In this document: in pieces, positions 3,346-36,644 of the stretch
How the letters are laid out: each line of letters begins with the position of its first letter
Numbering within the stretch: position 1 is the stretch's first letter
Origin: Paraspadella gotoi
Lineage: Eukaryota > Animalia > Chaetognatha
Assembly (NCBI GenBank): GCA_051294375.1
Contig: CM119266.1
Location: 15,428,285-15,492,284, forward strand
Direction of reading: 5' to 3'
Length of the DNA: 64,000 nt
Notes under the pieces: generated by a model
Database searches by the model: none
What the model was told of the DNA's origin: nothing
The model's input: only the letters and a program-made list of their open reading frames with translations
Made by a program: the position numbers and the translations under genes

Positions 3346-3473
3346 CTGCTATATCATTATCTTGTAAGAGTGATGGAGGCCTTAAACCACCAAAGCCTGT
3401 GCAAAGTCATGGCCAAGATAGCTTATTTATTAAAGAAATGAATAATTTTTATATTGGTTGTACCAATTTCATA
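3346..3473 (+). mobile_element. Short 3'-terminal fragment of the Penelope-like (Naiad-type) element family
   Basis: Aligns without gaps to 36389-36516 and ends at the same GGTTGTACCAATTTCATA; shared reading frame SLSCKSDGGLKPPKPVQSHGQDSLFIKEMNNFYIGCTNF. Confidence 0.75.
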
Positions 3474-13900: not shown

Positions 13901-15326
13901 ATATCGCTGTATTTTAGTTATTGATCCTCATTTAAAAAAAATTGTTATTTTTTTTGGTATAAACTAAATTCTAGCAATCTAATAAACACTGTTATGAAGC
14001 TAATTTTATAATGTTACTACAATATGCAAATAAGATGAAAAACTAATTTGATCACGAAATTTAAATTTCTTGTTGCTTCTCCAATTTTATGACGGACAAT
14101 AATTTAAACTAAACCTATTTTCACTACCTATCCATTCGTAGGTGAACTTCATCGGTAAAGAATCACCTCATCCCTCTTCGGACAAGAAGAAAAAGACTCT
14201 CGCCTTCTCGCGCAAGTTTCCCTTCATGAAGAGCAAAGAGCAGCTGATGAGCGAGGAGGCCGAAGTCGCCGCCGCAGAACCGCAGCATCATTTGCAGCAG
14301 CAACCGCCGCCGGAGGAGCAAATCGACTCGTACGAGGCAGTCATTCAGGAGGACATCGATTACGCGCGGCCCGTCGTCGTCCTCGGCGTCATGAAGGTCC
14401 GTGCTTGCTCTTGACGTCGTTATTGTTCGTTAAAGGGATAAGGGGGGATTATTTTGGGGGAGAGAACGTTCGCAAAAAGTACGTGTTGTATTTTAAAAAT
14501 GAACTGAAGGATTTCGAGACAAAACAGATTACAGAAAAACCAAAGACGAATCTTTTTTCGCGCACATATTTTTGTTTATTCTTTACCTTAATCATTGAAG
14601 AAACTCCTATCTTAACTATGTAACTATTTCTTAAACCTAAAAATTAATTTAATTTCTAAATTGGGCTTTTCACTACTAACTGCTATTTTAACTGCAATTA
14701 ACTGCTATCAAAGATCTAACATCTTCCCTTTTCCTTCTCTAGTTTTAATCCCCACCCTCTCTTTCCTCAACCCCCCTTCCCAGGACCGCATCAACGACGA
14801 TCTCATCGCCGAGGACCCCGACCGGTTCGGGTCCTGCGTTCCTCACACGACGCGGCCGCGACGGGACTACGAGATCGACGGTCGCGACTATCACTTCGTC
14901 GATTCTCGGGCGCGAATGGAGACGGACATCCAGAACCACCTCTTCATCGAGGCCGGCCAGTACAACGACAACCTCTACGGGACCTCGGTCGTCTCGGTGC
15001 GCGAGGTGGCCGAGGCCGGCAAGCACTGCGTGCTCGACGTCAGCGCCAACGCCATCAAGCGGCTCCAGGCGGCCGACCTCCACCCCATCTCCGTCCTCAT
15101 CAAGCCCGCCTCCGTCGACGCCATCATGGACATGAACAAACGCGTGACGGAGGAACAGGCGCTGAAGACGCTCGAACGGACGCTCAAGACGGAGCGTGAG
15201 TTCGGCGCCGCCTTCACCGCCGTCGTCGTCGGCGAGACGCTGGCGGAGATCTACGAGCGAGTCAAGGAGGTCATCAGGAGGGAGAGCGGCTCCACCATCT
15301 GGGTCCCGGTGAGGGATCCCGTTTGA
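10945..15326 (+). CDS. dlg1: Discs large (DLG1/SAP97/PSD-95 family) MAGUK: low-complexity N-terminus, PDZ3, SH3, HOOK, guanylate-kinase-like domain; ~647 aa
   Basis: Exons 10945-11730, 11884-12012, 12687-12917, 14142-14396, 14784-15326, all phase 0 GT-AG. Motifs [49 protein letters not shown] (PDZ3), [40 protein letters not shown] (SH3), [18 protein letters not shown]...[25 protein letters not shown]...[15 protein letters not shown] (GK). Confidence 0.95.
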
Positions 15327-16294: not shown

Positions 16295-17543
16295 ACCGTT
16301 AGCGCCATCTACAAAAAAAAGTCCATGTACAAAAATTATCAGTTTGACGCATATGCGATACAATCATAGATTGGTTGATTCGTCCGTTCATTCCTTGTAT
16401 AGATTAGTATATAGTGCGTGAATTTTAAATTAGTTCCCGTTGTATATGGAAATCTATTTATTGAAAAACGATAAATTAAAAAAAAATCATGTTTGGGTCT
16501 ACACGAAATATTGAACCATGAACGTACAATCAATCGTAAGTTATTCTTTAAGAATCATTCTCAAGATTTCTTCTTTGAGTTTTTTAACGAGCAGCCACGC
16601 TCCAATCATGCGCGCATTTTGAACCATAATTTGCAAATATTCACAGACGTCAATGGATGCGCGTTCAATACGCATCATTAAAACGCAATTTATTTTCTTG
16701 AACATCACATTGTTTAATAATTTTTTCGTTCGCAGCGTCGTTTCTTTATCAGTGGCACTTATTAAAAAAAAATCATTTTTTTACCATTAACTCACTAAAT
16801 TCAAAAGAAAAGATTTTGTGATTTTTCTTTCTGGTTCTCACGCTCAGTCTGGCGAAGACAATGAAAAGGCAAACACGATGACGAGAGTTTGGAATCATGT
16901 TTTGTTGTAATAGAAATAATATCATATATTCTTTTAATGTATTTTTTATTTAAGAATTGAATTTGCTTTGCATACTCCCGTGATTCTAAGCTCGTCAGTC
17001 ATCTTGTCTGTCGATAACTATGCTGTGATGATGATAAATTGATAACTTTTTTCAATGATTAACCCAGTCGATCTTTTTAACATTCATGACGAATTAAATC
17101 TGAAGGCTTTATGATAATATCGAATGACGTATTCAAGAATGACAGACGGTGAGAAGGATGTATGGATTTTCAACTAATGTTTGGGTTTTTACTTGTGTAA
17201 TATATACTTTGGTGACTTAAACAAATCTTTCGTAGTTGTAGTATCTCTTCGTCCAGATTATCATTGATGGCTTTTTTTGTTAAATAAAAAAATGGATTAT
17301 TCTGTGTAACATAAACCTTTACTACTCATCATTCTGTTATAAATAAACTGTTACGAAATACAAAAAAAAAACCGGACCTTTTTTCGGATTAAAAAAGGCA
17401 ACGACTCATTGATTTTTTACCAATAGTTAACTACAAACTACCGCAATCTACTTTTCATTTTATTGCCAAAACTTTTTCTCGAAGATTTTTCGCTCGCCAC
17501 TGTTTTCGTTTCTTTCAAATTCCCGGAAAAAAAAACAATTGGT

Positions 17544-19429
17544 TCACATTCGGTAAGTGACGTCTTCCTCGTGAGTGTCGATGCGCATCACGCTCTCGGA
17601 CGGCTCCGTGTCCGGAGGCCGCTTCCACGCCTCCCTTGTAGTGACGAAGACGACGACGACGGCGAAGACGACGAGGACGATGCCGAAGAAGTTCACAATG
17701 TAGGCTGCGGGAGGCAATAGATGAGCGTGGTTTTCTCTGTCTCTCTCTCTTTGTCTCTCTCTCTCTATCCCATAGCTCTTTTGTTCTATTTTTCTCTTGC
17801 AGTTTTCCTGATTTACCTTCAGGTGGCCTCTTTGAGTAGGAACTGCCGAGACTGAACATCCCCTTTTCTAGGATGCCAGTGAGCGCGGTCCCGATGCCGA
17901 GAGTGAAAATAGTCACACCGAAATATGTGTGAAGTGACAAGTAGGAACTTCGCAGCCATTCAGAGCGCCCTGTTAAATAAGGGTCGGATCGATACTTTTA
18001 GTTTAATAGTCTTCATGAGTAATACAAATATTTTATAAATTTACCATGACATCAAAACTTAATAGTGTCCGACCTGGAAGCAAAAAGATAAAAAACCCGC
18101 AGAGAAGTTGAAGGGAAAATAGAGCGACAGTCAAGATGCCCAGCCAAGAGTGCAGGCTGAAATAGTGACAAAAAATATTCATGTGTTTTAACATTATAAA
18201 AAGTAACATTGTTCCGTAAAACATGAAGTTTCAATTATGTATAGTTGTATACGTGAAAATACCAAGCAAGAGCAGCCCAAAACAACGTCAGGAGTGAGGC
18301 GACTTACGATCGGTCTCCTGGCATTCCTCTCTAAACCTTCCTCTCTCCTTTTCCTTCGCGCCGGTCAATCTAGGGCAAGGTGACCGTTGGGATTGACCGG
18401 CGCGAAGGAAAAGAAGAGAGGAAGAGAGGGTTACGATCTTCAGTCGCCTCGTTCAACAAGTTTTGCCAAGTGTCTTTAACCATATATGTTAGGTTATGTT
18501 ATAACATTGTTTTACCTATACAAGTTTGGAATGGGTGTTGCTGGAAGGTTGTGTGAATCGAAAACGGCCTAGGAATCAAATGTATATTATATAAGTTATT
18601 CTGTTTCCTAAGTTTATTATTATTATTTTTATTGATTTAGAACACCTTGAGGGAAACGCCGACCAAAATAATGACCAGTGCCTGTATCGCCGCATGGATG
18701 ACTTTTACAGCAAACTTGGGCAAAAAGAAGAGAGCCCGGTAGACGATCATGGCTGTAATTGAGGAAAAAACTTGCACTGAACGCGGTATAAACTAGTAAG
18801 ACGAATTTGAATTTTAAGCTGAGGCTACTTTTCTGGAAATCTCTTAAATGGCAAATTGTGAATTCATCGTTAATTTTCCTACGCTCGGTGAGATGAAAGA
18901 GCTATCCTCCTTGGCATCCTATGTCCTGCTTTGCCCTACCTCCCACCTTGAGCAAAGAGGTAAATGAATCCCACTGTCATGAGTATCGGGTGCCAGTTGA
19001 ACTCGTGCTTGAGATCCTCAGTCCACGCCACGCCACCGCGGTAATCGATGAACCATATGAAGCAAAGCGCTATTACCCCGGCCCCGAGGAGCTGTGGTCG
19101 GGGATGGCGAGAGGATTTTGAGAATTCTTGCGGATTTTACGATACGAGATTTGAAAAGGATATTGATATTTAAACATTTAAATAACAACCACAGTGTTTT
19201 AGTGAGAAAAATTGAATTTGATAAATGAACATCGTACAACCAAAATTTACATTAGATTAAAACGTAAAACAAAACAAGATTCTCAATCCTAACAGCACAA
19301 ACAAAGGATTTGAAGCTGAAATTAATTCATTTTATTTTATTGTACTTTTATTTAACTTACCTGGATAAGAAGGAGGAATCCTCCGAATGTGAGCCATTCA
19401 AGCAATGACCAATTCGTTTTAGGATTCAT
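17544..19429 (-). CDS. Cytochrome b561 family transmembrane ascorbate-dependent reductase (CYB561/CYBRD1-like), ~256 aa
   Basis: Exons 19429-19361, 19091-18947, 18752-18646, 18568-18516, 18156-18074, 17969-17817, 17704-17544, phase-consistent. Motifs FNWHPILM..GFI, KVIHAAIQ, AVFDSHN...IPNLYSLHSWLG, SLHTYFG...ALTGILEK (four heme-ligand His present). Confidence 0.93.
18296..18450. repeat. Intronic fold-back element (34-bp arms, 33/34 match, 20-nt loop; outer 9-bp inverted repeat), MITE-like
   Basis: 18337-18370 cttcctctctccttttccttcgcgccggtcaatc vs 18391-18424 gattgaccggcgcgaaggaaaagaagagaggaag; outer GAGGCGACT/AGTCGCCTC. Confidence 0.75.
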
Positions 19430-20231
19430 TTTTTTGCTCGTTCAATGCTCTCGCAGTTCTGAGTTCTAAAAGAAAAATATTTAATTTTATTTTAGAAAAA
19501 AACTTTCGAAACTGAAAAACTCGCTTCACGATAACTGAAAAAGTGAATCATTAAAAACATCGACGTCTGAAATCGAAGCCAATTTCTCTCGTTATTTTGT
19601 TGACATAAATCCGCCCTTTCTTGATAACCAGGTTTTAAATTGGAGGTCGAACTAATCAAATAATCATTAAATCACATATCAGTGAGAGAGAAAGAACTCA
19701 AAATGTAACTAACCATGTAAATAATCAGATTCCTATTCTGATTCTTTTTTGCTATGACCTGTCTTTGGGATGAAGTTCAAAGTAATACAATTTCAGTGAT
19801 AACATTTTAATCAGTTCATGAAGAAAAAAGAAATTGTAGAAAACTTTAAATGAGACAAATTAAAAAAAATTTCTCATTTATTTTTTATTCATGCTTATTT
19901 TTTGCTAGCTATTTGGGCTAACAAAAATAGTGGTGCTCAGTTAAATTGTGAAGTGAGAAGATTGGCAGTAACGTTTCAACTTTTTATGACGAAAATAAAA
20001 ATTTTATATCAAAGCTGAAGAATGAAGATTCATAGTGGTATCAGAGATAAGCAAGCAGTTAAAGCGATCAAAACTGTAAATTATAAAGAAGACTGGTGAA
20101 TATATATAACATTTTAGGTTAACGATTGGACCTTTTGTCTTCAACTAACGTTTTTATAACTGCATTGTTTAACGACGTCATTTTTAACAATCCTCGATGC
20201 AAATTCCTTTTGCAAGAAATCGAGCCTCTCC

Positions 20232-21835
20232 CTATCCACATGACGTTATTTCATTCCAGCCCTGTTTTTCCTCCTCTTCCACCATCCCTTCCCCCAACTT
20301 CTCCCCCTTGAATGACCCCAGAATCTCCACCGGAAGAGGAAAGACGATGGTTGAATTCTTTCTGGACGAAATCTGCGAGAGAGTCTGCAAGTAGCGAAGC
20401 TGCAACGCCGCCGCATTGGCGTCAATGACTTCGGCGGCCTGCTGAAGGGCGCGGGAGGCGCGCTGTTCGCCCTCGGCCGCAATGACCTTGGCTCGAGCCT
20501 CGCGCGCCGCCTCCGCCTCCGCCGCCATGGCACGCTGCAGCTGCGCCGGAAGCCTCACGTCCTTGACCTCCACCCGTTCCACCTGCCATGGGAAAGAATC
20601 GAGCACATTCGTCGCAAATGAATAACTTTTAAAAATACGGCATTTTCTTTTCATTTTTTGAAAAATTTCTTAGAAGATTAAATTATTGCACCACATAATT
20701 GCTCCTGCCGAAAGATATTACGTAGAATTATTCCGATTTTAATTCTGTTAATAAAGATATAAGCGGATCACTAATTTTGTACCTTGACTCCCCAAGGGTC
20801 TGTCGCCAGGTCGAGACTCTCTTGCATGTTATGCGAAATGGTGTCGCGGTCCGACAGAACTTCCTCCAGCTTCTTGGTGCCCAGGACGGTTCTTGCACAC
20901 GGAATATTTAATTTTATAAATTATTAGTATTGCTTTATCATCCGTGGTATCAACAAGAAAACTTACCTCAGCGTGGTAGCTGCCAATAGCCTCGTGGACC
21001 GAGGTGCGTCCACGACGTTGGTGACGCTCATCGTCGGGTTGAAGATACTCCAGTAGACGACGGCGTCGACGGCGACCGTCACCGAGTCTTTCGTCAAAAT
21101 CTCTTGCTGCGGAACGTCGAAAGTCACCTGGAGACGACAAGACGGTTAAAGTGTCGGGATGAACGAGGATGAGTAAAGTAATGATTATTTTGATGGTCCA
21201 TCGAGTCCAATTAAAAATAATCAACTGACAAACAACACACCGTTCTGAGATCGACGCTGATAAAGTCGTCGACGCAAGGAAGAACAAAGAAGATTCCGGG
21301 TCCCTTGGCACGACCGCCTTTGAGTCGACCCAGTCTGCCAAAAATAAATCTGAACAGTGAACAAACTGAACATAGCTTTTCTATTCACGACTACAAGCGA
21401 TCTTTAGTAGACCCTCATCGCCCTCACCCGTTGGCATGTAAGGTAGCGGGATCGCCAGATTTCTTTACTTCTACAATCTACACCCTCCAAAGCCCTACCA
21501 TTCCCCATTCCGAATCAAACCTTCCCTCTCTCCGAACCCCTCTCTTCATCCCTGCGGTCTCGCCCCCAAAAAAACCTGAAGATGACGGCGCGTTCGTACT
21601 CTTGAACGACTTGGAGAGAAAAGCAAAGGGAGAGTGGGAAGAGTGCGACGACGAAGAGGAAGGAAACGATCGTCAGCGTCCATCCGAAGCACCCGATCTC
21701 GGCGCCGAGTCCAGCGTCATTCCCGCCGCTGTGGTCTCCTGACGCAGCGTCATCGGAACAGCCTCGCGCGCGACGCTGGTCGGGACTCCATCCGTTCGGG
21801 ATCATACTCTCCGCCGAAACGGATTTACTCGTCAT
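20232..21835 (-). CDS. stom: Stomatin / band 7 (SPFH) family membrane protein, ~324 aa
   Basis: Exons 21835-21576, 21334-21241, 21127-20967, 20891-20783, 20582-20232. Motifs [121 protein letters not shown]...[10 protein letters not shown]. Confidence 0.95.
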
Positions 21836-22001
21836 GCAGTTTTGGGTTTTATTAGGGAGATTTGGGGGTTTTCGTTGTTGTATCTAATTAGGTTTTTTAA
21901 AAAAAACGAGATTTGTACTGTTCGTTGTCCGGCTTTTTCTTAATTTCTTTTCGATATTGTTGGGAGAGTAACGGAATTTAAATTGCGCCGTCATGAGCGG
22001 A

Positions 22002-23572: not shown

Positions 23573-24244
23573 TCTCTTCTCTCTCTCTCTCTGCTCTCTC
23601 TCTCCTCTCTCTCTCTCAGCCACTTTTTCCGATGCAGATGACACACATGAAATTAGCATCATTAAAATCCTCCTTTTTTTTGACAAAAGTCACTTTTCTG
23701 AACTCATTAGTACAACAAAATTAAAACGACCGTGTTACTTTAACATCATTATCGATTGCACCCCAAAAAAAGTATTAACTGTATATATTTTTGCGTAGAA
23801 AGCCAGTAAGATCCCCACTGGAGGCTCAAATTCAAGCGCGGTATGATTTCGAACTTACTTCGCGCCTCCGCGTGGGACTGGGATTAACCCAGTTCACAAG
23901 TAAACTACTAAGTCGATGATGAAGGTCACCTACCTCCTGAACGTAAAACCGTGAGGAGAAGTGAAATCTGAGGCATTGACCCAAGTTGTTTTTCGTGTAT
24001 TACCGAAATTTATTAAAGGCCTTTTAAGGCCTAATAAATTGTGTCTATGCCTTGACTGCCGTTGAAACTTCTGTTTTTTTTTTTCTCATCTGGGTCCTTC
24101 TCAGTTAACATTTAATTATGAAGGTCCCTCACTTTCTCCAAAGTTTATGACGAAACTAGACATCCTTCAGAGACAGTTTTTTTTTCAGGTTTCTTGAGGC
24201 CTTGCTAAAATCAAATGTTATAAAAAAGTGGAACCAAAATAGCT

Positions 24245-24316
<72 letters not shown>

Positions 24317-27300
24317 TCTCTCTCTCACGGTCAAAGAAGTAGGTGTGTGTCTTGAACTGCCACACGAAGGCCGCGTCGATTTTCTCGAGTTGCGGTGGGA
24401 GGCCGAGGACGGTGAGACGGAGAGGCCCGCGGACGAGGGCCACGCCATCGAACTCGTAGAAATACTGACCTGGAGATATGGCATTGTTATAAGAACATAA
24501 AAATAAACAAACCAACAAACTTGACACGTGAATTATTTAACTAAGCCAATAAATCTCCCTCTTACTAAAGAATTATCATAGTAAGGCGAATATATTGTAA
24601 TAAAACTAAAATAGAAAGAGCGTAAATACTGAAATATACCCTTGAAGAACATGAGATTTCCGTTAGGCTTTTCGTAAACGGCGTCCACGGACTCCTCCGG
24701 GTACTGCGTCCAAAACGTCGCCAGTTTGAACGGACCATAAGTCATCGTCTCTTTTTGAACTCTCCAAAAGTATTTTCCTGTGAATATTAACGCGAATGGC
24801 GATGTTCCATTTGAATTTTTTTTATTAAAACATTAACTTACCCTTGAAAAAGAAGACTTCCCAAAACCTGACGACGGAGGCGGCGTCGAAATTCGTGTCG
24901 CAGGTTTCAGGGACGTCGTCGTCCGGTGGCGTTGGTGTCGTCCATGTCGTTGGCGTCGTCTTTCTCGTCGTCGTTTTGGTGTGTCGTTGATCGAAGATTG
25001 AGTTGCCGTCTTCCGTATCACCTGAATTGGAAAAAGAACTTGTCGATTCCTGACCATAGAACAACAGTTGTCGACGGTTTCCACTCACCATATCGTTTTT
25101 GTATCCCGTTAATATCGTCCGAATCTAATTTAAGATCTTCCTTGTAGCCCTAAATGTTGTTTTTGGAAAACCAGTAGAAATAATTTTTTTTAAAATTCAA
25201 TATAATTTTAAATATTTTGTAGGATGCCAATTTTATTTATGTACCTTGTAATACGGCGTCATTATTGCTTCGGCAACAGGGGAATGACCAAGACCGAGAG
25301 AATGACCGATTTCGTGAACGGCGACGGTGAAGAATTCGTAACCTGAGAAATAAAATATATAGTATACGTATTTAAAATATTTACAATAATATGCCTTTAA
25401 GTCGTTCGACTTACGAGTAAAATATTTTTTGTGCGACGAAAATAAAGAAAATAAGACGACGAACGCCGAAATAACATCCATTTTATGGCTCGACTTTTTT
25501 TTATTTCGAGCTGCTCTTTTATAATTTTATAATATTCCGCGCCCCTTGCTTTTATTTGATTTACGTGACCATCAATTCTACGGACGAAACGACGAAGTAG
25601 AAACAAAAAAAAATTATCTTTTTTTTATTTCATCCTTTTATTTCTCTGGAAATCCCGGTGATCGAACTTTATGAAGGAAAAAGGAGGAAAAGAAAATCGG
25701 AGGAAAGGAAAAGAGGAAGAGGAGGAAAGAGAAGAAAAGAAGAGGAGGAGGAAAAGAAGAAAATAAGGTGTAGCTATCGTCTAGGGTCCAAAAAGTCGAA
25801 GGAAGCGTTCAAATTAAATGAATAGTTTTAATACTTTGTCCAGTGGCCATTATCACGAATAGTGAAAAACTATTTCAAATTTAGAATCTTTGAATTTGAC
25901 AGTTGTCTTAAAAAACGTCAAGGAAACGAACCATAAATCTTTGACAATCTTTGAAACAATTTTCATCTTCGACACAAATGATTTAGATTGACTAGCACTT
26001 TCCACGTTTTCTTTCCTGTCGCGTCACGCTTTTTGGCGCGCAAAGACTCACAGTCTCACACTCACTCGCGAAACGCGGGAGTAAATAAGAATCACATGTG
26101 ATGAATTCGCGATTTAGGGGTCATCCGGCCAAACGCTCGACGGTGCGACTGAAAGTTAGACGTTGCCCTTGGCAATTTTGTATAAAGTTAGAATTAGACT
26201 TATTTAAAAGACTTATTTAAAAGACTTATTTAAAAGACTTATTTAAAAGATTTATACAATAATATAAAAAATCAAGAATATCACATGCATTATATTAGAA
26301 CCTATCTTTGTGGTTTGCCACGAGGAAAATTATTAATTCTATACAATGAGAGTAGAAATTTGAATGATCATGAATACAGAAATTTGCGAGATGGCATTAT
26401 AATGATATCAGATATACGATTATTTAAACCAGTTTTAACGGAAAAAATTAGAGGGGGAGAATATTACCACATTAACTTTATAGATAAAGGCTTAGACTAT
26501 ATTAATCTTGGTGGAATTTTAAATAGTAAAACCATACAAAACAAAATACCAGTGTATTTTGATTGCAGGGAACCCCCAATGGTGGGATATGGATATGGTG
26601 GGAGCATAGCTGGTTTAATGTTTAATTATAGAAGATGCTTGAAAAATGAGGATGTTAATAATATTGATATGGATTTGATGGTCTGTGATTGCGAAAATTC
26701 TACATTTAAAGATCCATATCATTATCATATTATCACAGGTAATTTGAATATAATAGAAAATGAAAATTTAAAGAAAATTTTGAAAAAAGGGCCAAAATGT
26801 AGACTGCCTGGAAAGGTGGGTTGGATAAAGGGTATGGATAATATGGCAGACTTCATAGATGTATATGCTGGGGATTGGATAGGGAGAGAAAATCAGGCCA
26901 ATAAAGACACAAAAATAAATATCAATGTTTTAAATGTATGGAAGAAGGAGGTTTTAAATTTAGTTAAAAAACGGATAGAATATTGCAAAAATAAAGTTAA
27001 AAATACTTTCCCATTAAATGTTGCGGGATCTTTAAAAACTGAACTAAATAGATTACAAGATAAATTTATAATAACACCAGCAGACAGGGCTCAAGGCAAT
27101 ATTATTTTTACATGTAAAAAATTCTATTACAAAAGATTAAAAGAAGAATTAATAGACTCACAATCATATAACTTCACTAATGAAACCGCTGAAAGTATCA
27201 ATAAAAGAATAGCTAAATTTGGTGAAGATTATGGAATTAAAGTAAAAGACGAAATGAAAGAAATTCCTATTATTTATTTTATTCCTAGGGTGCATAAAAG

Positions 27301-30300
27301 TCCTACAAAACAAAGATACATGGCGGGCTCTAAGGTATGTTCTCTCAAGGCAGTATCTAAACATTTTTCAAAATGTTTAAAGCTAATGCTAAAACATCTT
27401 AAAGTATACTATCAAGTAGTTTTTCAAAGATCTGGAATAAAACATTATTGGATAGTTGATGATTCTTTGGAGTTTTTGGAAAAAATTTCTCAATTAAAAA
27501 CAGATTTTCTAGAAACATATGATTTTTCAACATTATATCCATCACTTCCTCATTATGAAATCGGGAGTAGGCTAGAAATTTCATTCAGAACAATTTTTTC
27601 TAGGGAAAATAAAACATATATAAATGTAAATCATAATAAAGCTTATTTTTCAAATACTAAGAATAAGGGATATATTTCTTTTACTGAGAAAGATTTGAGT
27701 GTTGTCCTCGACTTTATTTTAGATAATGTTTTTGTCAAATTTGGCTCCTTAATATACAAACAAACATTAGGAATACCAATTGGACTAGATTCTGGACAGG
27801 ATGTTGCCAATGTGTTGTTATTTTATTTTGAATCAACATATATGGAAAATATGTCAAAAAATAATTTAGGAATCGCAAGACAATTTAAAAATTGCTCAAG
27901 ATATATTGATGACCTTTTTTCGGCCGATTTTAGGGATTTTAAAATACATCTTGCCAACATATATCCAGCAGCACTTACTGTAAATAAATCTAATAGCACA
28001 GATACAGATGTAGATTATTTAGACATTAACATTAAATCAGAAAACAAAAATCTTACTCTGTCTGTTTATGATAAAAGGGATTCCTTTTCTTTTGAAGTGG
28101 TTAATTACCCATATATGGACAGTTGTATTCCTAAAGGGGCAGCACTGGGTGTGTTTGTTGGCCAATTAATAAGATATGCAAGAATATGTTCGACGTTTAC
28201 AGATTTTTCATCAAGAGCTATAAATTTAAGCAAAAAACTACAAAGTCAGGGTTATATATTTAAGGACTTAGGGAAAATGGGAATTAAATTTTTTAATAAT
28301 TATAAGGAGCTAATAAATAAATATAATGTTACTGATGTTAATCTATTTTCAAAAAAGATTATACATGATAGTTCCTAATAAAAATGACAGGAAAAAATAA
28401 CAAAAATAAACCACTAAGTAATAATTATAATAACAACATCAACAATATTATTTAAATAACTTATTTAATTTATTTAACTTATTTAACTCTCTGATTTAAT
28501 TTGTTTTTTAACTTTTACCAATTAACTTATTGTTAACTTTGCATTAACATACCCTTAATTATTAACTTATTATTAAACTAATTATTTAACTTATTTTATT
28601 TATTTACAAATTACAAATTATTATAAAACCTTAATAAAATTTCTCTAAAATTAATAATGCTGTGATGCCAGGGCTTTGGTCTGTTTCAGATAAACATTCA
28701 AGATATACCTTTAAAACATAAGATAAGCAACAATGAAGGATCACCATTTGGTGATGGCTCGCCTATACCTGGATATTGGGATTAAAGAGCCGAAATCCAT
28801 GAAGGGTATAGGTTCCCAACTGATGACCTTCCCATTGTATAAAAATAAAAGATAAAAAATATTCAAAAAAGAAATAATTAAAAAATAGGATAAAGAAAAA
28901 ACAAAATTTTCATTAAAATATTTTAAAATTATATTCATGACATAAAGGTGCCCCTATAGACCTTTCCCCAGTGTGTATCCCTATCGGAGCATGCAGTTCT
29001 GCATGGTGGTCTTATCCCTATTGGTAAAAAAATCATATATAACGTTGGTCCCTCAAAAAATTATCCATTCCCACCCCTTTCTGTTCGGCCTCTTAGATAT
29101 TGTGATTTTTCATTAATGACTTTCTAACAGAAATGATGTGTGATATCTATTGGAAAACTAGGACAGATAGTAATCTAACCTTGTGTTGTATAGATGCTCC
29201 CTCTATTTCCAGAAGACAACACTGACTTCCCCTTCCCAGGTTGTATTATTAGATAAATAAAACATTTTTAAAAAAGAAAGCAATATATGTTTGAATAAAT
29301 AATATGGATTAAGTGATGAATCCTTCATAAAAATATTAAAATATTAAAATAGAAAAATGAAAAATAGTGAGACAAGTAATTTGCAAATTTTCATAAGAAA
29401 CTGGAATTCACAAACGATCACAAGATCGTCCAAAATCGGAATTGTACATGGTTGATCTCTCAAAAGCATGAATGTCCCTCATCCGAGTGTGTTTTTACTT
29501 GAGCCAAAACAAAACAAATGAGAAATCAAAACAATCCCATACACCTCTAAGTCGACAGTCGGCATTTTGAAAATACCCAGGGCGAGAGCAACACTGAGCC
29601 AACAAATGAGAAATCAAAACAACCCCATACACCTTTTAGGTCCACAGTCGGCATTTTGAAAAAGCCCAGGGCGAGAGCAACACTGAACCAACGTTATTAA
29701 CACCACCGACGACGACACGAAAAGGACCGTCCCAGAATTTTAGGCCCTTAAAGTCGAGTTTCGACGAATGTTGATCGTCGTCACATCGTCGCTCTCAGCG
29801 TCGTCGAATATGGGGAAAAGTCACGAACTCCTTAATGGTCGCGTTTGTTTTCTATTTGGTCGTCGTTCTCGTTGTCGTTGTCGTCGTCAGTGTCGTTGTC
29901 GATGTCGTTGTCCGAAATCATAGAATACCATGGAGAGAAAGAAAGACTAAGAATTAAGAGAGAGAGAGAGAGAGAGAGACTCACTCTGATCGACGTTTAC
30001 ACCGACGACCCAGGATTCGTCGTCGTCGAAGTGAATGTCTCCCCCAACATCTTCTCCCGGCGCGAAGGCGTGGGCGAGCACGCGGTCTGAACAAGGGATG
30101 ATATTAAATTAAATAAATATTAATTTATTAATTACCTTCAAAAATTTTTTTCACTATCTCACTAGGGCCGTCGAACGGATAAATGTCTCCGTGATTCCAT
30201 CCCCCGAAGTCGATCCTAATGTCGGCGCCGAAACATCCTTGCGTTCTGTTGAAACAGGCTCAACTACGTTGCTATTTTGTCTAAATTTATTTTTAAAACC

Positions 30301-30652
30301 AACATATATCGTTTTAACAGACCTGATCATGTCGAATCTGAATGGGGAATTTTGAGACCAGAGGGCGAATGCTCGTCGGACGCTGGATTCTTGATCGGCC
30401 CAGTAGATACGACGACTGTGTTTCATGAAGCTGAAAGATGATCGTAATATTAATAGAAACCAATACGTGATTTTAGGGACGAGGAAAACGACTAACATTC
30501 GTTCATTTAGTAAATTAAAAACTCAACAACGCAATGGTTAAGTCATGACGCCTCATTGTTTGAATTACGAAGGGACACTTGGGCCCACAAGATTAATCCC
30601 TTCATTTGCATTCTGCAATTTGCACCCGAAGCACACGAGAGAAATGCCCAGC

Positions 30653-30686
<34 letters not shown>

Positions 30687-32129
30687 AATCAAACTTATCC
30701 TCCCTTTTCGTGTAACCGAATGATTGGCCCATTGTCAAAATTCCCCTCGTCCTCCGTTGAAAACTGCGACGTTTTTCCTTCCGCATAAAATTATCAACGA
30801 GCAGGAAAAGGTCCCAACCTTGACAGTGTACTGCAAATTGAAGCCTATGATCTAATCCTTTCATTCTATTACAACTAGTACTGCTATTTTATATCGTTTT
30901 ATGCGGGAGGAGCCAATGAAGCCAAAATTCACCACTACGTACTAGCTATTTAGGAAAACTCACCAGTAAGTGAGATGCTTTTTTCTCCACACATCTCCGT
31001 AGACCGTGAATCGTTTAGCACGTCTCCTATTCAATCCGGTTCCCCCTTCCTCGTACACGAGCTCCGCCGAAGCTGATCGTCGTCTCTCAACATCCGGGCG
31101 ACCGCATCGAGGAGACCGCATTAAAGCTAGTGTAGCTTGGTCCAGTTCGCCGGTCTGACAGAAGATTTGATTTGATTGATTGCAAGTTATGACACACCGA
31201 TTGATCGATACATTGATCCATCGATTTTTTTCACATTACCTCCTCCACATTGCCAAACTTTTGCATGTTCTTGATCGCACCCCTTACGCTTGTGTCAGAC
31301 ATCAGGGCTCTCATCCCGTCTTGGGATTCGAAGCTCGGCAAATAACCGTAGGATTCCAAGAATTTCTGTCAAAATGTTTATTGGTTAAAAATGGAAAATA
31401 TTTAAGGATTCCCCAACCTGAAAGTTACATTATTCAACTTATGAAACAAATCAATTTTCCGTTGTCTAACGTTTCCAGATGTATCGTGCTTTGTTTCTAT
31501 CGCGTGATCTTTCGTGATCGACGAAAGCGCAAACAACTGAGTACAACGTAACATCTGGAAAGCGTAACCCGAACGATCGTATCTCTACGTTCTAATCTTT
31601 TTCTTCCAAATTACTCGAATATTTTTAGCGTAAAATTTCTGCCTGGAAACGAGAGAAACGTACTGAAGATTAAAAAGTATCGATTTTCGGCGGGAATCTC
31701 CGAGGAATCGCGTTGTCTATCCCTCCGGTAAACTCTCTCTCTTTCTTGACGAGCCTTTTTCATCGGCAGACATTGAAGCTTCGTCAGTCAGTCAAAGCCT
31801 TTGATTAACGAGCAAAACGACCTCTTTCGACGCAACAATGTTTTTTCTCTTTGTCTCAGAATCCAGGTTTATCACCTTTACTCATTCGGGTCTCGTGTCT
31901 CCTTTCTTCTTTCCGATTAGCTCTGTCCCGTCCGCTATCCTTCCCTCCCATATTTTGTTTCCTTTTGTTTTCTTTAGTTTTTAATTTCTCTTCGAAGGAA
32001 AATAAAAGAGAGAGAGAAAAAAAAAGTTTCAGGTTCTAAAACTTCTCCTTTTTTTATCCTTGCCTTTGCCGCGGTCACGCGTCTATCGATCGGCGCCCCA
32101 GGGGGACCAGGAAATTTTATGCTAATTCA

Positions 32130-32183
<54 letters not shown>

Positions 32184-34707
32184 TCGAGCGTGATCGCCCG
32201 GTAACAGTAAAGCCACTTCATCGACCATCAAAATACGAACCAAAAATGCATAGCACTGTTCCAATACCCCCCCTTTTTGCCTCTTTCTCTTTTTTCACTC
32301 GTTAACCCTAAAGGCCCAAAGTTCCCCTGGGGACGAAACCCCGTGGGGCAGAAGGTGAAACATAAACAAAAACAATGAAAAGATCTGAGGCGATGAAAGC
32401 GATGAAAAGAAAGGGTTTTATACTTTCGACTCTTTTTTTTTTCATACTTCTTTTCTATTTTTATTTCTTTTTTTACTTTCTTCTTTCTTCTCACCTAATT
32501 ATTTTCAGATTCACAATACAATCTTCATTTTTTTTTCATTCCTTTTTCATTTTTCCATCTCAAATTCTATTAAACGAAAATCACGGGGGAAGAGATCGAA
32601 TTTAAATTTTCGCGCGACGGGAGGCGATAGATTTGGATGCACGTATGGAGTAGAGAGGATGAATAGACAGTGGAGAAAAGAGAGGTGGTGTTGAACGGGA
32701 GTTCGAGGGTGAAAGGGCTTCGGGAATTATCGCAGTAATTTGAAAAAATAAATTGAGAAATCTGGAGATGGTCTTTTCCAACGATCGAAACGCGTGCGTG
32801 ATTTCGTCGATCAATGAATATTTCATCTCGACTTAAAACGATGACTATGAATTTCATTTAAAAATGATTTTTAATTTACGAGTCAGTCGAATCATCGTGC
32901 CAGGCCGGGAGGGCAATAAACGTAAACCGTCGTTAAGCAAAAGAAAAATGAGAAGAATTAATTCGATGGTCGTTTGTGATTCGCTGAAAAACAAAAAGGG
33001 AAAGCCGTGAATCGAGACTCGTAAATCTTTTCACTGCTTCACTAATCTTTTGTCTTTCTTCCCATAGTCCAAAAAATGAATCACTCGCACCGAAAGAAAA
33101 ACATATTAGTCAATCGTCAACTGACAAAATATGAATTTTCTCAAAGGAAATTTAATCTAACAAACAATCAAAAAATAAAAGGAGTGGCTTCTTGGCCTGG
33201 ATGACTTGACGAAAGATTGAAAAAAAATGTAGGGGGTTAACGAAATTAATAAAAAGTTGAAAAAATATTGACATGATTGCTAGGGCAATTGTTCTTGGAT
33301 ATCGACCATGTTACAAGCTTTAACTTGACTAAAAAAAAACTAACTCAAGATTAAAATATTCTTTCGCTTTAATGCCTTGCAGACTTTTGACCAAAGAAGA
33401 AAAACATAAAAAAACTAAAGAAAAAAGAAAAAGAAAGTTTTAATGGCGACGACGCGTGTCTCGGTATAACGATGTTGACTCCTTTATTAATTCCTAGACA
33501 AAACATAAAATCCGACGAAAACGAGACAAGAAAACATCGAGGAATTTAAAACGACGTCGACGACGACGACGACGACGATTTAACGACTTTAGACCCTTTT
33601 TTTTTCATCAAGTTTTCTTTTCTCGGCTAAAAGAAAACTCCCCGGAAACGTTCCCCCCTTCCCCATATGGAGCGAGATATCTGAGAAAAGGCATCGCCTA
33701 AAAACCGGCGACCTCCCGCTAATCGCTTCAATCGCCAGCGTCGAACCAACATCGCCTTTTTCTTTGTTTATTTGTCGCTCACGGGAGGTGATTGTGATAA
33801 AGAGGCGAGGTGATTGTGATAAAGAGTCGAGGTGATTGTGATAAAGAGGCGAGGTGATTGTGATAAAGAGTCGAGGTGATTGTGATAAAGAGGCGAGGAA
33901 TGCGCTGACCTTCACAAGACGATGACGATTTCGCCACGGACCAGTTTTTTTATCGGGTCGATCTCGGCACAAAGTTAAAAAAAAAATCCTAAAAGGAGAG
34001 ATCCCGTCGACACATTTTTCATAAGATACTTTTTTTATTGTTAAAGTTTTTTTACCACCTCATTAAAATTTATAAACGAGAGACGCCCTGTTATGGCTTG
34101 AGACCGAGCAAAATTTAAACAATCTCCGATTACCAGTTTCCCACCCACCCACCAAAGAAGAACCACCAACCCCTGCCCCCCTACCCCCTTAAATCCGACT
34201 CACCAAACCCTCAAAGATCTGAGATTTTGCTCCTTCATTTCCCCCGTCATTTCGGTCTCCTCCTCCTCCTCCTCCTCCTCCTCCTCCTCCTCCTCTTCCT
34301 CTTCTTGTTCCTCCTTCCTCCAGGATCTTTTCGTCTTCGCTCGATCTCTCGTTCCTCCTTCTTCCGACATCCGGCTTCCAGTTTATCGTTCGTCCGCCAG
34401 GATTCGATGACCAATCCGATAAGTTCGATTTCGCGACGGAGAGAAGCGGCTCGAAGGACGACGACGACGACGACGATGAAAAAGACGAAAGTAAAGACGA
34501 CACGGAGGAAATAGACGTCGCTGTTCTTTTGTTGACGTCGACGCCGATCCAGCGGCGAGAGGCGACCGGCAACGACGCGGCGAGAGGAAACGCGAGAAGG
34601 CAAAGAAAGTAGAAAACGAGAACAGAGGAACGTCGGAAACTCGCTAGGAACGGACGGAAGGCTGGAGATTCGAAGGCGGAGGGGAAGACGTTGGAATGCG
34701 TCGTCAT
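22815..34707 (-). CDS. Matrix metalloproteinase (M10A), furin-activated, four hemopexin blades and hydrophobic C-tail (probable GPI anchor); ~707 aa from Met 34707 (frame is open upstream to Met 35232)
   Basis: 14 phase-consistent exons: 34707-34204, 31365-31240, 31154-30964, 30430-30323, 30245-30163, 30086-29985, 25342-25245, 25149-25089, 25021-24842, 24777-24640, 24469-24329, 23409-23296, 23233-23145, 23003-22815. Cysteine switch PRCGRPD, RRAKR furin site, [18 protein letters not shown]...[22 protein letters not shown], Met-turn AIMTPYY, hemopexin CDTNFDAA...W.KC. Confidence 0.93.
23800..23975. ncRNA. Candidate structured small RNA in MMP intron 11 (SL-RNA-like on - strand, or box C/D-like on + strand)
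   Basis: GC-richer island with four hairpins. Minus strand: donor GAG|GTAGG at 23934/23933 within stem-loop I, Sm-like AATTTGAG 23832-23825, terminal hairpin 23821-23803. Plus strand: ATGATGA 23916-22, CTGA 23937-40, GTGAGGA 23951-57, CTGA 23968-71. Confidence 0.4.
26196..26247 (+). repeat. 4 x 13-bp tandem repeat AGACTTATTTAAA at the 5' junction of the retroelement
   Basis: Copies at 26196, 26209, 26222, 26235; the last runs in frame into the RT ORF ([18 protein letters not shown]). Confidence 0.9.
26285..28378 (+). CDS. Penelope-like reverse transcriptase with upstream CxC linker; N-terminal GIY-YIG endonuclease absent (truncated), no C-terminal endonuclease; 697 aa
   Basis: Intronless AT-rich ORF. 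CxC domain [34 protein letters not shown]; RT motifs [12 protein letters not shown] (A), [10 protein letters not shown]....DVAN.LL.YFE (B'), RYIDDLF (C), DYLDINI (E); thumb [15 protein letters not shown]...[10 protein letters not shown]. Confidence 0.9.
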   Translation: MHYIRTYLCGLPRGKLLILYNESRNLNDHEYRNLRDGIIMISDIRLFKPVLTEKIRGGEYYHINFIDKGLDYINLGGILNSKTIQNKIPVYFDCREPPMVGYGYGGSIAGLMFNYRRCLKNEDVNNIDMDLMVCDCENSTFKDPYHYHIITGNLNIIENENLKKILKKGPKCRLPGKVGWIKGMDNMADFIDVYAGDWIGRENQANKDTKININVLNVWKKEVLNLVKKRIEYCKNKVKNTFPLNVAGSLKTELNRLQDKFIITPADRAQGNIIFTCKKFYYKRLKEELIDSQSYNFTNETAESINKRIAKFGEDYGIKVKDEMKEIPIIYFIPRVHKSPTKQRYMAGSKVCSLKAVSKHFSKCLKLMLKHLKVYYQVVFQRSGIKHYWIVDDSLEFLEKISQLKTDFLETYDFSTLYPSLPHYEIGSRLEISFRTIFSRENKTYINVNHNKAYFSNTKNKGYISFTEKDLSVVLDFILDNVFVKFGSLIYKQTLGIPIGLDSGQDVANVLLFYFESTYMENMSKNNLGIARQFKNCSRYIDDLFSADFRDFKIHLANIYPAALTVNKSNSTDTDVDYLDINIKSENKNLTLSVYDKRDSFSFEVVNYPYMDSCIPKGAALGVFVGQLIRYARICSTFTDFSSRAINLSKKLQSQGYIFKDLGKMGIKFFNNYKELINKYNVTDVNLFSKKIIHDSS
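28731..28837 (+). other. Predicted interlocked multi-stem RNA structure in the 3' region of the retroelement
   Basis: Four perfect pairings in order A B C D A' C' B' D': GGCTC/GAGCC, CCTATACC/GGTATAGG, TGGAT/ATCCA, TTGGGA/TCCCAA, enclosed by an imperfect CAATG-AAGG / CCTT-CC-CATTG stem. Confidence 0.5.
29513..29692. repeat. Tandem duplication, 2 x ~88 bp
   Basis: aacaaatgagaaatcaaaacaaYcccatacacc...cagtcggcattttgaaaa..cccagggcgagagcaacactgaRcc occurs twice in tandem. Confidence 0.85.
33785..33898. repeat. 22-bp minisatellite x5 (GAGGTGATTGTGATAAAGAGKC) with alternating G/T variant (44-bp higher-order unit), MMP intron 1
   Basis: Read directly; units end alternately in ggc and gtc. Confidence 0.9.
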
Positions 34708-35325
34708 CTTGGAATGAGTCGAGTGTTTGAAGGAATTTGGAGAGGACGAGGTTGTTAAAGATAAGTTAGAGATTTTCCTCGAGAGGCCAACCTTTCTTTT
34801 GACAGGGCGAGGGACGTTCGTCATTTTTTCGGAAGAGGTTTTATAAGCGACGAGTCTCTCTACTTCGAAAAGGGAAAAGGGTCGCTGTCTTTTGGTTTCC
34901 TTTTCTATTCGATCGAAACGAGAATGGAGTTTTGCGGTTTTCGATTTAGATTTCAGTTTCGCGTCGAAAGGGCGAAGCCGCGACGAGGGGAAATCGTTTA
35001 TATAACCATCGCCAACGGAGGACGAAAATTGGATTATAGGACAGACAGATGACGATGACGACGATGCTGATGACGACGACGAAGAAGCCGACGACGGCGA
35101 GAGTGATGTCAACGAGGCTTCGATCGAAACGTCCGGTTGATTTTCCGTCGTGACCTTATTTGGAATCGCCTCCTTTAGTTCCGCTTCAGACGGAAGAAAA
35201 TTGGTTTGTGCGTTGGCGTGGCGACACCTCATGCTTCCGCCAATGCAAGGGATCGATTTTCAGGGACTGAAGTGATTATCGCGCGAAAAAAAGCGTGATG
35301 AGGAAATGATGAGAAAATCTGTTTA

Positions 35326-36644
35326 CAGGGACTTCAATCTGGACCGATACGAAAAGGCTTTATGAAACTCGTAATTCTTTCGCTGTATATTTTTTTTTTA
35401 TAATATTTATTACTTGACGATTAAGTTGACCTAAAAAATGTTAAAATTTCTTAATAGTATAATCACAGTGGCTCCCAAGCACGGAGTCACTTTTCTTCAT
35501 TTTTCTGATTGTGAAGTTATCTGATAGAAAAATTTTAAAAAATGGCGATAAAAAAATATTTTTTAATTTTTTATGATAAAAATTTTTAATGTAAAACCTA
35601 ACTTACTTATTATGGTAACTAATATTTATTAACAAAGTCGACTTTCATAATTTTTTTCCCCCTAAACCAAAATTTTTATTTTTAATAGATTTTAAAGGGA
35701 AAAAGTAATGATTATTATCAAGTATTATTCATATTATAAAAAAATTTGGTTCATGATACATATACTACAGTATCTAATTAATAAAAAAAAGATTTAAAAA
35801 AAATACAATTGTTATGAAGGATTGATAGCAAGATCTACTTTTAAAGTAAAAATTCTGCTTCTTCAGATATTTACCCTCTGAGGTAAATGTTTATAACATT
35901 ATAAAATTATATTCATGACATAAAGGTGCCCCTATAGACCTTTCCCCAGTATGTATCCCTATCAGAACATACAATTCTACATGGTATTCTTATCCCTATT
36001 GGTAAAAAAAATTATATATAACGTTGGTCCCCCCTCAAAAAATTATCCATTCCCACCCCTTTCTGTTCAGCCTCTTAGATATTATGATTTTTCATTAATG
36101 ACTTTCTAACAGAAATGATGTGTGATATCTATTAGAAAACTAGGACAGATAGTAATCTAACCTTGTGTTGTATAGATGCTCCCTCTATTTCCAGAAGACA
36201 ACACTGACTTCCCCTTCCCGAATTGAATTATTAGATAAATAAAACATTTAAAAAAAAAAAAAAAAAAAAGAAAGAAAGCAATATATATTTGTTTAGATAA
36301 TATAGATTAAATACTAAATCCTTCATAAAATATAAAAATAGAAAATAGTGAAACAAGTAATTTGCAAATTTTCATATAAGATATAACACTGCTATGTCAT
36401 TAGTTTCTAAGAAAGATGGAAGCCTTAAACTACCAAAACCTGTCCAAAGTCAGTGGCAGGATAGCTTATTTATTAAATGAATGGATAATTTTTGTATTGG
36501 TTGTACCAATTTCATAGCAGCTATCCTAGCTAGAATGTTACGAATCGGTAAATAATCGAATAAGAAAAAAATTTACAACCTGATTGCTTTTAATTTCGAT
36601 TATATTACAAGTTTTTTTTGTATCACTCCAGATTGAAGTCCCTG
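35326..36644. mobile_element. Non-autonomous TIR DNA transposon (MITE-like) carrying a nested retroelement fragment
   Basis: 18-bp perfect inverted repeats CAGGGACTTCAATCTGGA (35326-35343) / TCCAGATTGAAGTCCCTG (36627-36644), extending imperfectly inward; left flank TA, right flank TC; no coding capacity. Confidence 0.65.
35902..36516 (+). mobile_element. Solo pseudo-LTR-like fragment of the same Penelope-like family, running into the probable start of the element ORF (ATG 36394)
   Basis: 35902-36376 aligns to 28924-29395; 36389-36516 aligns to 3346-3473. Confidence 0.85.

What the first reader, a model, noticed from the sequence alone, without database searches (positions are those of the whole stretch)
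26196..29395. A-to-G hypermutated Penelope-like insertion: an apparent ADAR-edited RNA fixed in the genome by reverse transcription
Seen: hand alignment of 28924-29395 with the sister copy 35902-36376 gives 18 sites with G here and A in the sister, only 2 in the reverse direction, and about 6 other substitutions (e.g. ATCGGAGCATGCAGTTCTGCATGGTG vs ATCAGAACATACAATTCTACATGGTA). The base 5' of the changed A is almost always T or A. The ORF gives the polarity: G-clusters in an otherwise very A-rich frame break residues normally conserved in these RTs and revert cleanly with G-to-A. Examples: [11 protein letters not shown] from PPIIGYKYNKS, KGPKCR from KGPKYR, DRAQGN from DKAQNN, PRVHKSP from PKMHKNP, YMAGS from YIAGS, EIGSRL (GGG AGT AGG) from EIKNKL, VGQLIRY from ISQLIRY. 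Established: ADAR converts A to I in dsRNA, disfavours a 5' G neighbour, I is copied as G, and A-to-G cannot create a stop codon, which explains a 697-aa frame that stays open while motifs decay. Inference: the template RNA was hyperedited before retrotransposition, so ADAR may act as a heritable mutator/restriction system on this family, analogous to APOBEC G-to-A editing of LTR elements. The 'original' residues are my reconstruction from remembered family consensus.
Basis: partly seen in the sequence, partly recalled or inferred. Interest (0 to 1): 0.92.

Follow-up and report, generated by a model that had tools for sequence, protein, structure and literature searches.

The report
RNA-editing scar in Naiad retrotransposon copy
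One broken copy of a jumping gene in an invertebrate genome carries about a hundred one-stranded A-to-G changes that its sister copies lack, likely because the RNA-editing enzyme ADAR altered the RNA before it was copied back into DNA, which would make RNA edits inheritable.

Summary
Confirmed and larger than reported. 26237-29395 is a 5'-truncated Penelope-like element of the Naiad type: the RT is kept, the N-terminal endonuclease is lost. It lies antisense in a metalloproteinase intron. Against other copies in four public runs it has G for A at 82-93 places, against 14-22 in reverse and 9-19 of the opposite-strand class. The A state matches residues conserved in 56 relatives, which fixes the polarity. 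A DNA contig carries the densest G cluster with no mismatch at the depth of the unique flank. Of 71 verified sites, 65 follow T or A and 1 follows G; they cluster and show no trace of selection. Best reading (about 0.85): ADAR hyper-edited the element-sense RNA, and the RT copied inosine as G. The enzyme and the duplex partner are inferred. A 'restriction system' is not supported: this is one copy, already crippled by truncation, in an abundant family whose copies keep A. Precedents are avian retroviruses and L1-made pseudogenes in cultured cells; I found no paper on inherited invertebrate copies. This scan noted the same thing before in other genomes.

The parts
26237..29395 (+). 5'-truncated Naiad-type Penelope-like element, A-to-G hypermutated on its sense strand (about 90-100 sites, my estimate)
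   Evidence: Other copies align from 26237 and continue upstream with different letters (tables 7-8); the 3' end is set by the sister copy and by junction contigs from 29367; substitution classes
26198..26249 (+). Four tandem 13-bp units at the 5' junction: the element's first 13 bases plus three extra copies (slippage during integration inferred)
   Evidence: family D2, spacing 13; family sequence differs before 26237 (loose end); no target-site duplication seen by eye
26234..28378 (+). Open frame, 714 codons stop to stop (697 from Met 26285): linker and RT part of a ~910-aa Naiad ORF; GIY-YIG endonuclease and KR-rich block missing
   Evidence: 23 of 275 conserved columns deviate by A-to-G-reachable changes, against at most 7 in each of 56 homologues
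26684..26692 (+). CxC motif (Naiad diagnostic), intact
   Evidence: defined in PMC8557442
27083..27091 (+). DKA motif of Naiads, read here as DRA
   Evidence: K in all 53 homologues covering the column; 27088 is A in other copies
27521..27913 (+). RT catalytic aspartates (YDFS at codon 413, YIDD at 542-543), intact
26572..26601 (+). Dense cluster: 8 A-to-G sites beside 7 unchanged A in 30 nt
   Evidence: X1 contig 26524-26670 has 0 differences from the window at depth 226.5
26815..26886 (+). Densest stretch; other copies fail to align at 80% but bridge it at equal length; 8 A-to-G sites and no other change in its last 30 nt
   Evidence: tables 5 and 7
28130..28160 (+). Cluster of 6 verified A-to-G sites
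28973..29008 (+).
28756..28826 (+). Hammerhead-like RNA motif with its blocks in scrambled (S-G-C) order; predicted cut after 28775; cleavage untested
   Evidence: 22 pairs, 10 with compensatory changes, but only 3 distinct sequences
35891..36376 (+). Sister copy, 3'-end fragment in the same orientation, carrying the family's A alleles
   Evidence: agrees with the read majority at 5 of 5 shared listed sites
29985..30086 (-). Host matrix-metalloproteinase exon (LAHAF...HFDDDE) upstream of the intron that holds the element
   Evidence: translation and GT donor; family named from recalled MMP motifs
25245..25342 (-). Host matrix-metalloproteinase exon ([11 protein letters not shown] zinc motif) downstream of that intron
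   Evidence: translation and AG acceptor

Best explanation
This is a truncated Naiad retrotransposon copy whose sense strand carries about a hundred clustered A-to-G changes in genomic DNA, likely written by ADAR on a double-stranded form of the element's RNA and then fixed when a reverse transcriptase copied inosine as G. Shown: the insertion, the polarity, the strand, the context and the presence in DNA. Inferred steps: (1) a full-length donor of a slightly diverged, still selected subfamily was transcribed. (2) Its RNA became double-stranded over most of 3 kb, either by fold-back on an inverted 5' arm at the donor locus (such arms are common in Naiads, PMC8557442) or by annealing to antisense RNA from intronic copies like this one. 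(3) ADAR deaminated about 7-8% of the adenosines, up to half locally. (4) A Naiad RT, probably made from an unedited RNA or before the editing, copied the RNA from the 3' end, stopped just short of the endonuclease domain and stuttered at the 5' junction. (5) The copy entered the germline and has changed little since.
For: Strand and class: 83 window-G/reads-A places vs 14 reverse and 9 opposite-strand in X7 (p 4e-13 and 4e-16); the other three runs agree. Polarity: at columns 90% conserved in 56 homologues, 19 of 33 deviations are A-to-G-reachable, the next class has 3; 23 of 275 vs a maximum of 7 in homologues; 7 vs mean 0.9, maximum 4, in 73 metagenome frames. Context: 5' T 34, A 31, C 5, G 1 of 71 vs 13.7% G before unchanged A (p 0.0008); 3' G 21 of 71 (OR 3.3). 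In fully censused stretches alone, 5' G is 0 of 45 vs 41 of 283 (p 0.003). Depletion of upstream G is the ADAR motif shared across animals (PMC5625713). No selection: 15 of 52 A-to-G sites in the frame are silent (28% expected), against 8 of 12 other fixed differences (p 0.02), as expected of one burst laid on a functional donor. Clustering p 0.013 and 0.037 in the sister-aligned region. In DNA: an exact contig at depth 226.5 beside a 5'-junction contig at 203.7; the X1 3'-junction contig, which spans the G at 29371, has 0 differences. The host pre-mRNA here is antisense to the element; editing of it would read T-to-C on this strand, so the edited molecule was element-sense RNA from elsewhere.
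Against: No RNA reads, no ADAR gene and no genome were available, so the enzyme is inferred from a signature. No inverted arm or long hairpin lies in or next to this copy, so the duplex partner is unseen. PMC5625713 reports A, not G, enriched downstream in its invertebrate group; here G is enriched and A is not. The 71 sites are those the tools displayed (40 of 242 rows), not a full census. The exact G-bearing contig comes from one run, which may be the assembly's own sample. For human L1, ADAR1 restriction was editing-independent and no edits were found in L1 RNA (PMC5224506).
Confidence: 0.85

Rival explanations
1. The RT itself misread adenosines as G in one round, through low dTTP/high dCTP or through slippage, with no edited base in the RNA.
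For: Gives the same strand and a single burst. 3' G enrichment (21 of 71) could come from re-copying the base just read (inference).
Against: 50 of 71 sites have no 3' G. Borrowing the next template base would favour 5' G, which is nearly absent (1 of 71), and T is favoured. Patches with half of the A changed lie next to 110-400 nt with 0 of 54 and 1 of 169 among listed sites (the list is incomplete). A-to-C and A-to-T are not raised, so a DGR-type adenine-error RT is excluded.
Confidence: 0.07
2. Another adenosine deaminase did it: an ADAT/TadA-type enzyme on single-stranded RNA, or a deaminase acting on the sense DNA strand during integration.
For: A 5' U preference is shared with TadA-type enzymes (recalled). 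ADARs can act on DNA:RNA hybrids in vitro (PMC12925331).
Against: 3' C, recalled as part of the TadA motif, is not enriched (6 of 71). Editing of the cDNA strand in a hybrid would read T-to-C on the sense strand, and that class is at background.
Confidence: 0.05
3. No hypermutation of this copy: either the family is G-to-A mutated and this copy is ancestral, or it is ordinary drift, GC-biased conversion or an assembly error.
For: The copy also differs from the majority in other classes (59-85 places per run at 5% share), so it is not the majority's direct daughter.
Against: The A state matches columns invariant in 56 homologues at 45-60% identity. Drift and conversion are strand-symmetric. The G alleles are in short-read contigs at flank depth.
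Confidence: 0.03

Closest known systems
Naiad clade of Penelope-like elements (Craig et al. 2021, PMC8557442; read: passages, section 5)
   Same: [quoted passage not shown]
   Different: This copy lacks the endonuclease, a pLTR and an inverted arm, and is A-to-G hypermutated; the passages I read do not mention such copies.
[quoted passage not shown]
   Same: Clustered A-to-G in reverse-transcribed DNA, up to about half of the A locally, ascribed to ADAR.
   Different: Those are infectious retroviruses with edits in U3 or an inverted repeat. Here it is a non-viral element, edited over 3 kb including the RT gene, with no inverted repeat in the copy, and constitutional in the host DNA.
ADAR-edited pseudogene insertions made by L1 in cultured human cells (PMC11702581; two passages read; Fig. 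S8 not seen)
   Same: Direct precedent that edited RNA is reverse-transcribed and integrated: 3 of 235 insertions with clustered changes.
   Different: Somatic, induced, confined to inverted Alu pairs of host mRNAs; here the element's own RNA in a natural invertebrate genome.
APOBEC 'DNA-edited' LTR retroelements (Knisbacher and Levanon, PMC4866542; passages read)
   Same: One-stranded clustered deamination scars fixed in genomic copies. This copy meets the mirror image of their rule (runs of 5 or more, 10 or more in all: runs of 7, 8 and 8).
   Different: C-to-U on cDNA reading G-to-A; makes stop codons; vertebrate LTR elements only, with invertebrates as negative control. A-to-G cannot turn a sense codon into a stop, so the frame stays open (genetic code).
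Hyper-edited Penelope RNA in lizard (Porath et al., PMC5625713; passages read)
   Same: Penelope-type RNAs are known heavy ADAR substrates (over 40,000 sites).
   Different: RNA-level only; no genomic fixation described in the passages read.

Membership tests
Naiad (N-terminal EN+ PLE) | GIY-YIG endonuclease N-terminal to the RT | tested here: inconclusive
   Absent from this truncated copy. Present in its closest full-length relatives (P0002 residues 54-110; PF01541 on many hits). A contig of the same family runs 185 nt further 5', but its letters were not shown.
Naiad (N-terminal EN+ PLE) | CxC motif between EN and RT | tested here: met
   CDC at 26684-26692, aligned with CxC in 8 of 8 relatives shown
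Naiad (N-terminal EN+ PLE) | DKA form of the DKG motif | tested here: met
   DKA in relatives; DRA here at an A-to-G-reachable codon
Naiad (N-terminal EN+ PLE) | No C-terminal endonuclease after the RT | tested here: met
   The frame ends at 28378 level with the C-termini of relatives
Naiad (N-terminal EN+ PLE) | No canonical hammerhead ribozyme | tested here: met
   No hammerhead match in Rfam; the one CTGANGA has its GAAA block upstream
Naiad (N-terminal EN+ PLE) | pLTR / tandem or inverted 5' copy; insertion-in-fingers domain; placement in the published tree | not tested
   No pLTR or inverted arm at this insertion, which is common in truncated copies; the IFD was not measured; named Naiad sequences were not fetched
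ADAR hyper-editing product | Clustered, one-stranded A-to-G | tested here: met
ADAR hyper-editing product | Depletion of G 5' of the site | tested here: met
   1 of 71; 0 of 45 in censused stretches
ADAR hyper-editing product | Downstream base as reported for invertebrates (A enriched) | tested here: not met
   G enriched (OR 3.3-3.8), A not, like the vertebrate group of PMC5625713; the host phylum is unresolved
ADAR hyper-editing product | Long double-stranded substrate | tested here: inconclusive
   No inverted repeat in or beside the copy; donor locus and antisense RNA not visible
ADAR hyper-editing product | Host ADAR; inosine in the RNA | not testable with these tools
   No genome, no raw RNA reads
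APOBEC-edited retroelement | G-to-A on the sense strand relative to the ancestor | tested here: not met
   Polarity is A-to-G
DGR-type adenine mutagenesis | A changed to any base; template and variable repeats | tested here: not met
   93 to G vs 5 to C and 10 to T in X1; no such repeat pair
Type-SGC hammerhead (PMC10085705, section 13 read) | Blocks in S-G-C order with stems I and III | tested here: met
   (3 distinct sequences)
Type-SGC hammerhead (PMC10085705, section 13 read) | Stem II strand directly after CUGANGA | tested here: not met
   The covarying partner of the G-block strand lies upstream, at 28756-28760

The most novel reading that the evidence does not exclude
ADAR-written bursts are a regular, inherited mutation class of Penelope-like elements in invertebrates. 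Antisense intronic copies such as this one supply the duplex partner, so a family that multiplies feeds the editing of its own RNA. Because A-to-G never makes a stop, the result is open but scrambled RT genes: a germline, stop-free counterpart of APOBEC restriction that also records the editing of single germline RNA molecules.
Probability: 0.3. Interest if true: 0.8.

Novelty: new variant of a known kind. Interest (0 to 1): 0.68.

Why it matters
It is sequence evidence that RNA edits can become inherited DNA through a natural retroelement in an invertebrate, a group used as the 'no editing' control in the APOBEC survey. It implies that a Penelope-type RT reads through about a hundred inosines over 3 kb and that Naiad RNA is double-stranded and exposed to ADAR in germ cells before it is copied. 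Each such copy is a one-molecule record of germline editing and of the host's ADAR motif, readable from DNA alone, and a private barcode for working out which parts of a complex insertion came from one RNA. Whether ADAR limits transposons by editing, or only leaves rare scars, becomes testable by counting such copies in assemblies. For annotation: open frames with decayed motifs and G-rich patches should not be read as divergent active subfamilies.

Tried and rejected
No whole genome was held, so copies could not be tabulated one by one; public contigs were used instead. No RNA holder was listed; X5 is only guessed to be RNA and agrees with the DNA runs, so it says nothing about expression. 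The unique flanks have little or no cover in X5 and X7: this cannot be read as an insertion polymorphism. No contig of X1, X6, X7 or X8 was laid on 26817-26884: a hole, not evidence about those Gs. Rfam gave only 6 chance matches below gathering score. Pfam found no family in the window's frame. The search for an internal hairpin as ADAR substrate found no arm pair over 36 nt in the element, at about 72% complementarity; folds of five 76-101 nt pieces were unremarkable (z -1.55 to 0.32). None of the 56 homologous proteins or the 73 of 79 metagenome loci with a frame of 400 codons or more showed a comparable excess; these are probably collapsed consensus contigs, so this does not show that edited copies are rare elsewhere, and the contrast is modest (7 vs maximum 4 on 135 columns). 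The share of deviations that are A-to-G-reachable (0.50) is not unique (maximum 0.57 in a homologue with 7 deviations); only the count is. Host placement failed: the discs-large fragment is 72-75% like mollusc and arthropod proteins and 82-85% like two unnamed ones; the Atlas gave only the Band 7 family. Rows dropped before counts: 26666 from the A-to-G set, and 26623, 26675, 26689, 26706, 26713 from the 'other' set, because only a minority of other copies differ there. Literature searches for an inherited A-to-G-edited non-LTR or Penelope copy listed none by title or abstract start; subscription papers are not covered, and supplements of PMC8557442 and PMC11702581, which may bear on this, were not opened.
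Full report
What is there. The window is from an invertebrate animal (discs-large, stomatin and metalloproteinase genes with introns; phylum unresolved). 26234-28378 is one open frame. From Met 26285 it hits 67 proteins; the best 56 are 45-60% identical, and the full-length ones are mostly about 910 aa with a GIY-YIG domain at the N-terminus. The alignment shows CxC, the DKA position and intact RT aspartates, and begins just after the KR-rich block of the relatives. These are the Naiad diagnostics of Craig et al. (PMC8557442; passages and section 5). Other copies align from 26237 and continue upstream with other letters, so the copy is 5'-truncated and has lost its endonuclease. Its first 13 bases stand four times at the junction. 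The 3' end is near 29395. The 3' 600 bases have several hundred to more than a thousand times the summed contig depth of the flank in X1, the ORF about ten to 170 times (not a copy number), as expected of a family dominated by short 3' ends. The element lies in an intron (25343-29984) of a minus-strand metalloproteinase gene, so it is antisense to the host transcript.

The observation. Against the sister at 35891-36376: 18 G/A, 2 A/G and 12 other differences in 466 columns. With no genome held, I laid contigs of public runs of the same organism (9 of 11 listed runs hold 31-41% of the words). At 5% share, window-G/reads-A places are 93 of 170, 92 of 177, 83 of 142 and 82 of 165 in four runs from three studies; the reverse class has 14-22 and the opposite-strand class 9-19. 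A second call on 26545-27030 gave 17 G/A rows of 29, and loose ends in which 8 of 8 and 8 of 8 differences in 30 nt are G/A; 26815-26886 is bridged at equal length but too changed to align. Adding that stretch and subtracting 10-15 background changes, I estimate 90-100 sites, 7-8% of about 1,330 original A.

Polarity. At columns at least 90% conserved among 56 homologues, 19 of 33 deviations are reachable by A-to-G; the next class has 3. With a leave-one-out test at 85%, the copy has 23 such deviations in 275 columns; homologues have at most 7. The same test at codon level gave 7 against mean 0.9 and maximum 4 in 73 frames from 79 metagenome loci. The A state is therefore ancestral.

In DNA. 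Run X1 has a 148-nt contig on 26524-26670 with no difference from the window at depth 226.5, beside a 5'-junction contig at 203.7 and a 3'-junction contig from 29367, across the G at 29371, with no difference. X2 (another sample of the same study) has both junction contigs, with 0 and 1 differences. The depth left over after the A alleles in X1 is 153-291 at seven ORF and UTR sites, and 551 and 2,424 at two sites in the very abundant 3' part. X1 may be the assembly's own sample, so this excludes a consensus error but is not independent replication.

Signature. I pooled 71 sites: 32 of the 40 rows shown, 16 of 17 G/A rows, 10 from loose ends and 13 more from the sister. 5' neighbours: T 34, A 31, C 5, G 1; G precedes 13.7% of unchanged A (p 0.0008), and 13.6% in the sister. 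3' neighbours: A 28, G 21, T 16, C 6; G is enriched (OR 3.3). In fully censused stretches alone, 5' G is 0 of 45 vs 41 of 283 and 3' G is 12 of 45 vs 25 of 283. Upstream G depletion is the ADAR feature common to all animals in PMC5625713; its invertebrate group prefers A downstream, which this copy does not show. Sites cluster (p 0.013 and 0.037 in the sister-aligned census). In the frame, 15 of 52 A-to-G sites are silent (28% expected by chance), while 8 of 12 other fixed differences are silent (p 0.02): the copy looks like a selected donor plus one unselected burst.

Mechanism. Sense-strand A-to-G points to a change in the RNA template. Deamination of the cDNA would read T-to-C, and so would editing of the host pre-mRNA at this locus, which is antisense. 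The flanks are unique and unchanged in X1 and X2, so the copy is not part of a larger retro-copied transcript, at least on the 5' side. ADAR needs a duplex; none is in this copy. Two inferred sources remain: the inverted 5' arms that Naiad insertions often have, at the donor locus, or antisense RNA from intronic copies. I give ADAR 0.85, RT misreading 0.07, another deaminase 0.05, and reverse polarity, drift or artefact 0.03. The restriction reading is not supported: one copy, truncated anyway, successfully integrated, in a family where 99.4-99.9% of depth at three 3' sites is A. ADAR1's known effect on L1 does not need editing (PMC5224506).

Comparison. Edited RNA copied into DNA is known from two avian retroviruses (review PMC12925331) and from 3 of 235 L1-made insertions in cultured cells (PMC11702581). 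Fixed deaminase scars are known for APOBEC in vertebrate LTR elements, with invertebrates as negative control (PMC4866542). Penelope RNA is heavily edited in lizard. Six searches listed no report of an inherited ADAR-type copy of a non-LTR or Penelope-like element; the library omits most subscription papers. Eight earlier notes of this scan describe the same signature on other genomes; they are unchecked AI notes and I do not count them as evidence. They gave me the lead to PMC11702581. Unlike several of them, this insertion has a single arm.

Side finding. 28742-28828 is the only part of the 3' region conserved in DNA among relatives at 46-48% protein identity (3 of 79 loci). It holds hammerhead core elements in S-G-C order with 22 pairs, 10 of them compensatory, 0 of 500 shuffles as high, but over only 3 distinct sequences. 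Stem II's partner lies upstream, unlike type SGC of PMC10085705 (section 13). The scan had noted this motif before. Edits lie on both sides of the predicted cut (28503 and 28973 onward), which would fit one template running through it (inference). PMC11167929 (abstract only) shows that a Penelope-like RT starts internally on its RNA; nothing here tests that.

Verdict. Real, ADAR-like, constitutional in the DNA; a new variant of a known kind; interest 0.68.

Noticed in passing
window 28756-28826 (+); L001:271-325, L002:3101-3155, L004 about 2091-2175: Conserved hammerhead-like RNA in the Naiad 3' UTR with scrambled block order and an upstream stem II partner; 10 compensatory pairs in 3 distinct sequences. 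Looser look-alikes in L043, L050, L073, L076, L077 were not aligned.
   Followed up: partly
window 28694-28830: Summed contig depth rises about six-fold in X1, X2 and X5 (twenty-fold in X7) here, and several pieces begin at 28773-28801, near the predicted cut at 28775: many short copies may start at the ribozyme.
   Followed up: no
window 26198-26249: Four tandem copies of the element's first 13 bases at the 5' junction, with no clear target-site duplication.
   Followed up: partly
window 29176-29238: A 50-60 nt stretch shared by many contigs that diverge on both sides (22-37 loose ends in X1 and X2): a motif common to several related families; its fold is unremarkable.
   Followed up: partly
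window 29513-29692: Two 90-bp direct repeats (91% alike) just downstream of the element.
   Followed up: no
window 3346-3473 and 36389-36516: A 128-bp repeat (86%), one copy starting 13 nt after the sister element's 3' end.
   Followed up: no
window 26717-26725: Three non-A-to-G differences within 9 nt, two changing residues in the His-rich motif; donor variant or a local event, unexplained.
   Followed up: no
window 10939-15326 (+), 17500-22000 (-), 24000-35260 (-): Host genes: discs-large (PDZ, guanylate kinase), a cytochrome-b561-like frame (recalled likeness), a stomatin (Band 7), and a metalloproteinase.
   Followed up: partly
L008, L025, L028, L029: Related Naiad contigs whose first and last 55-132 bases are identical or nearly so: circular assembly of tandem or circular units.
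   Followed up: no
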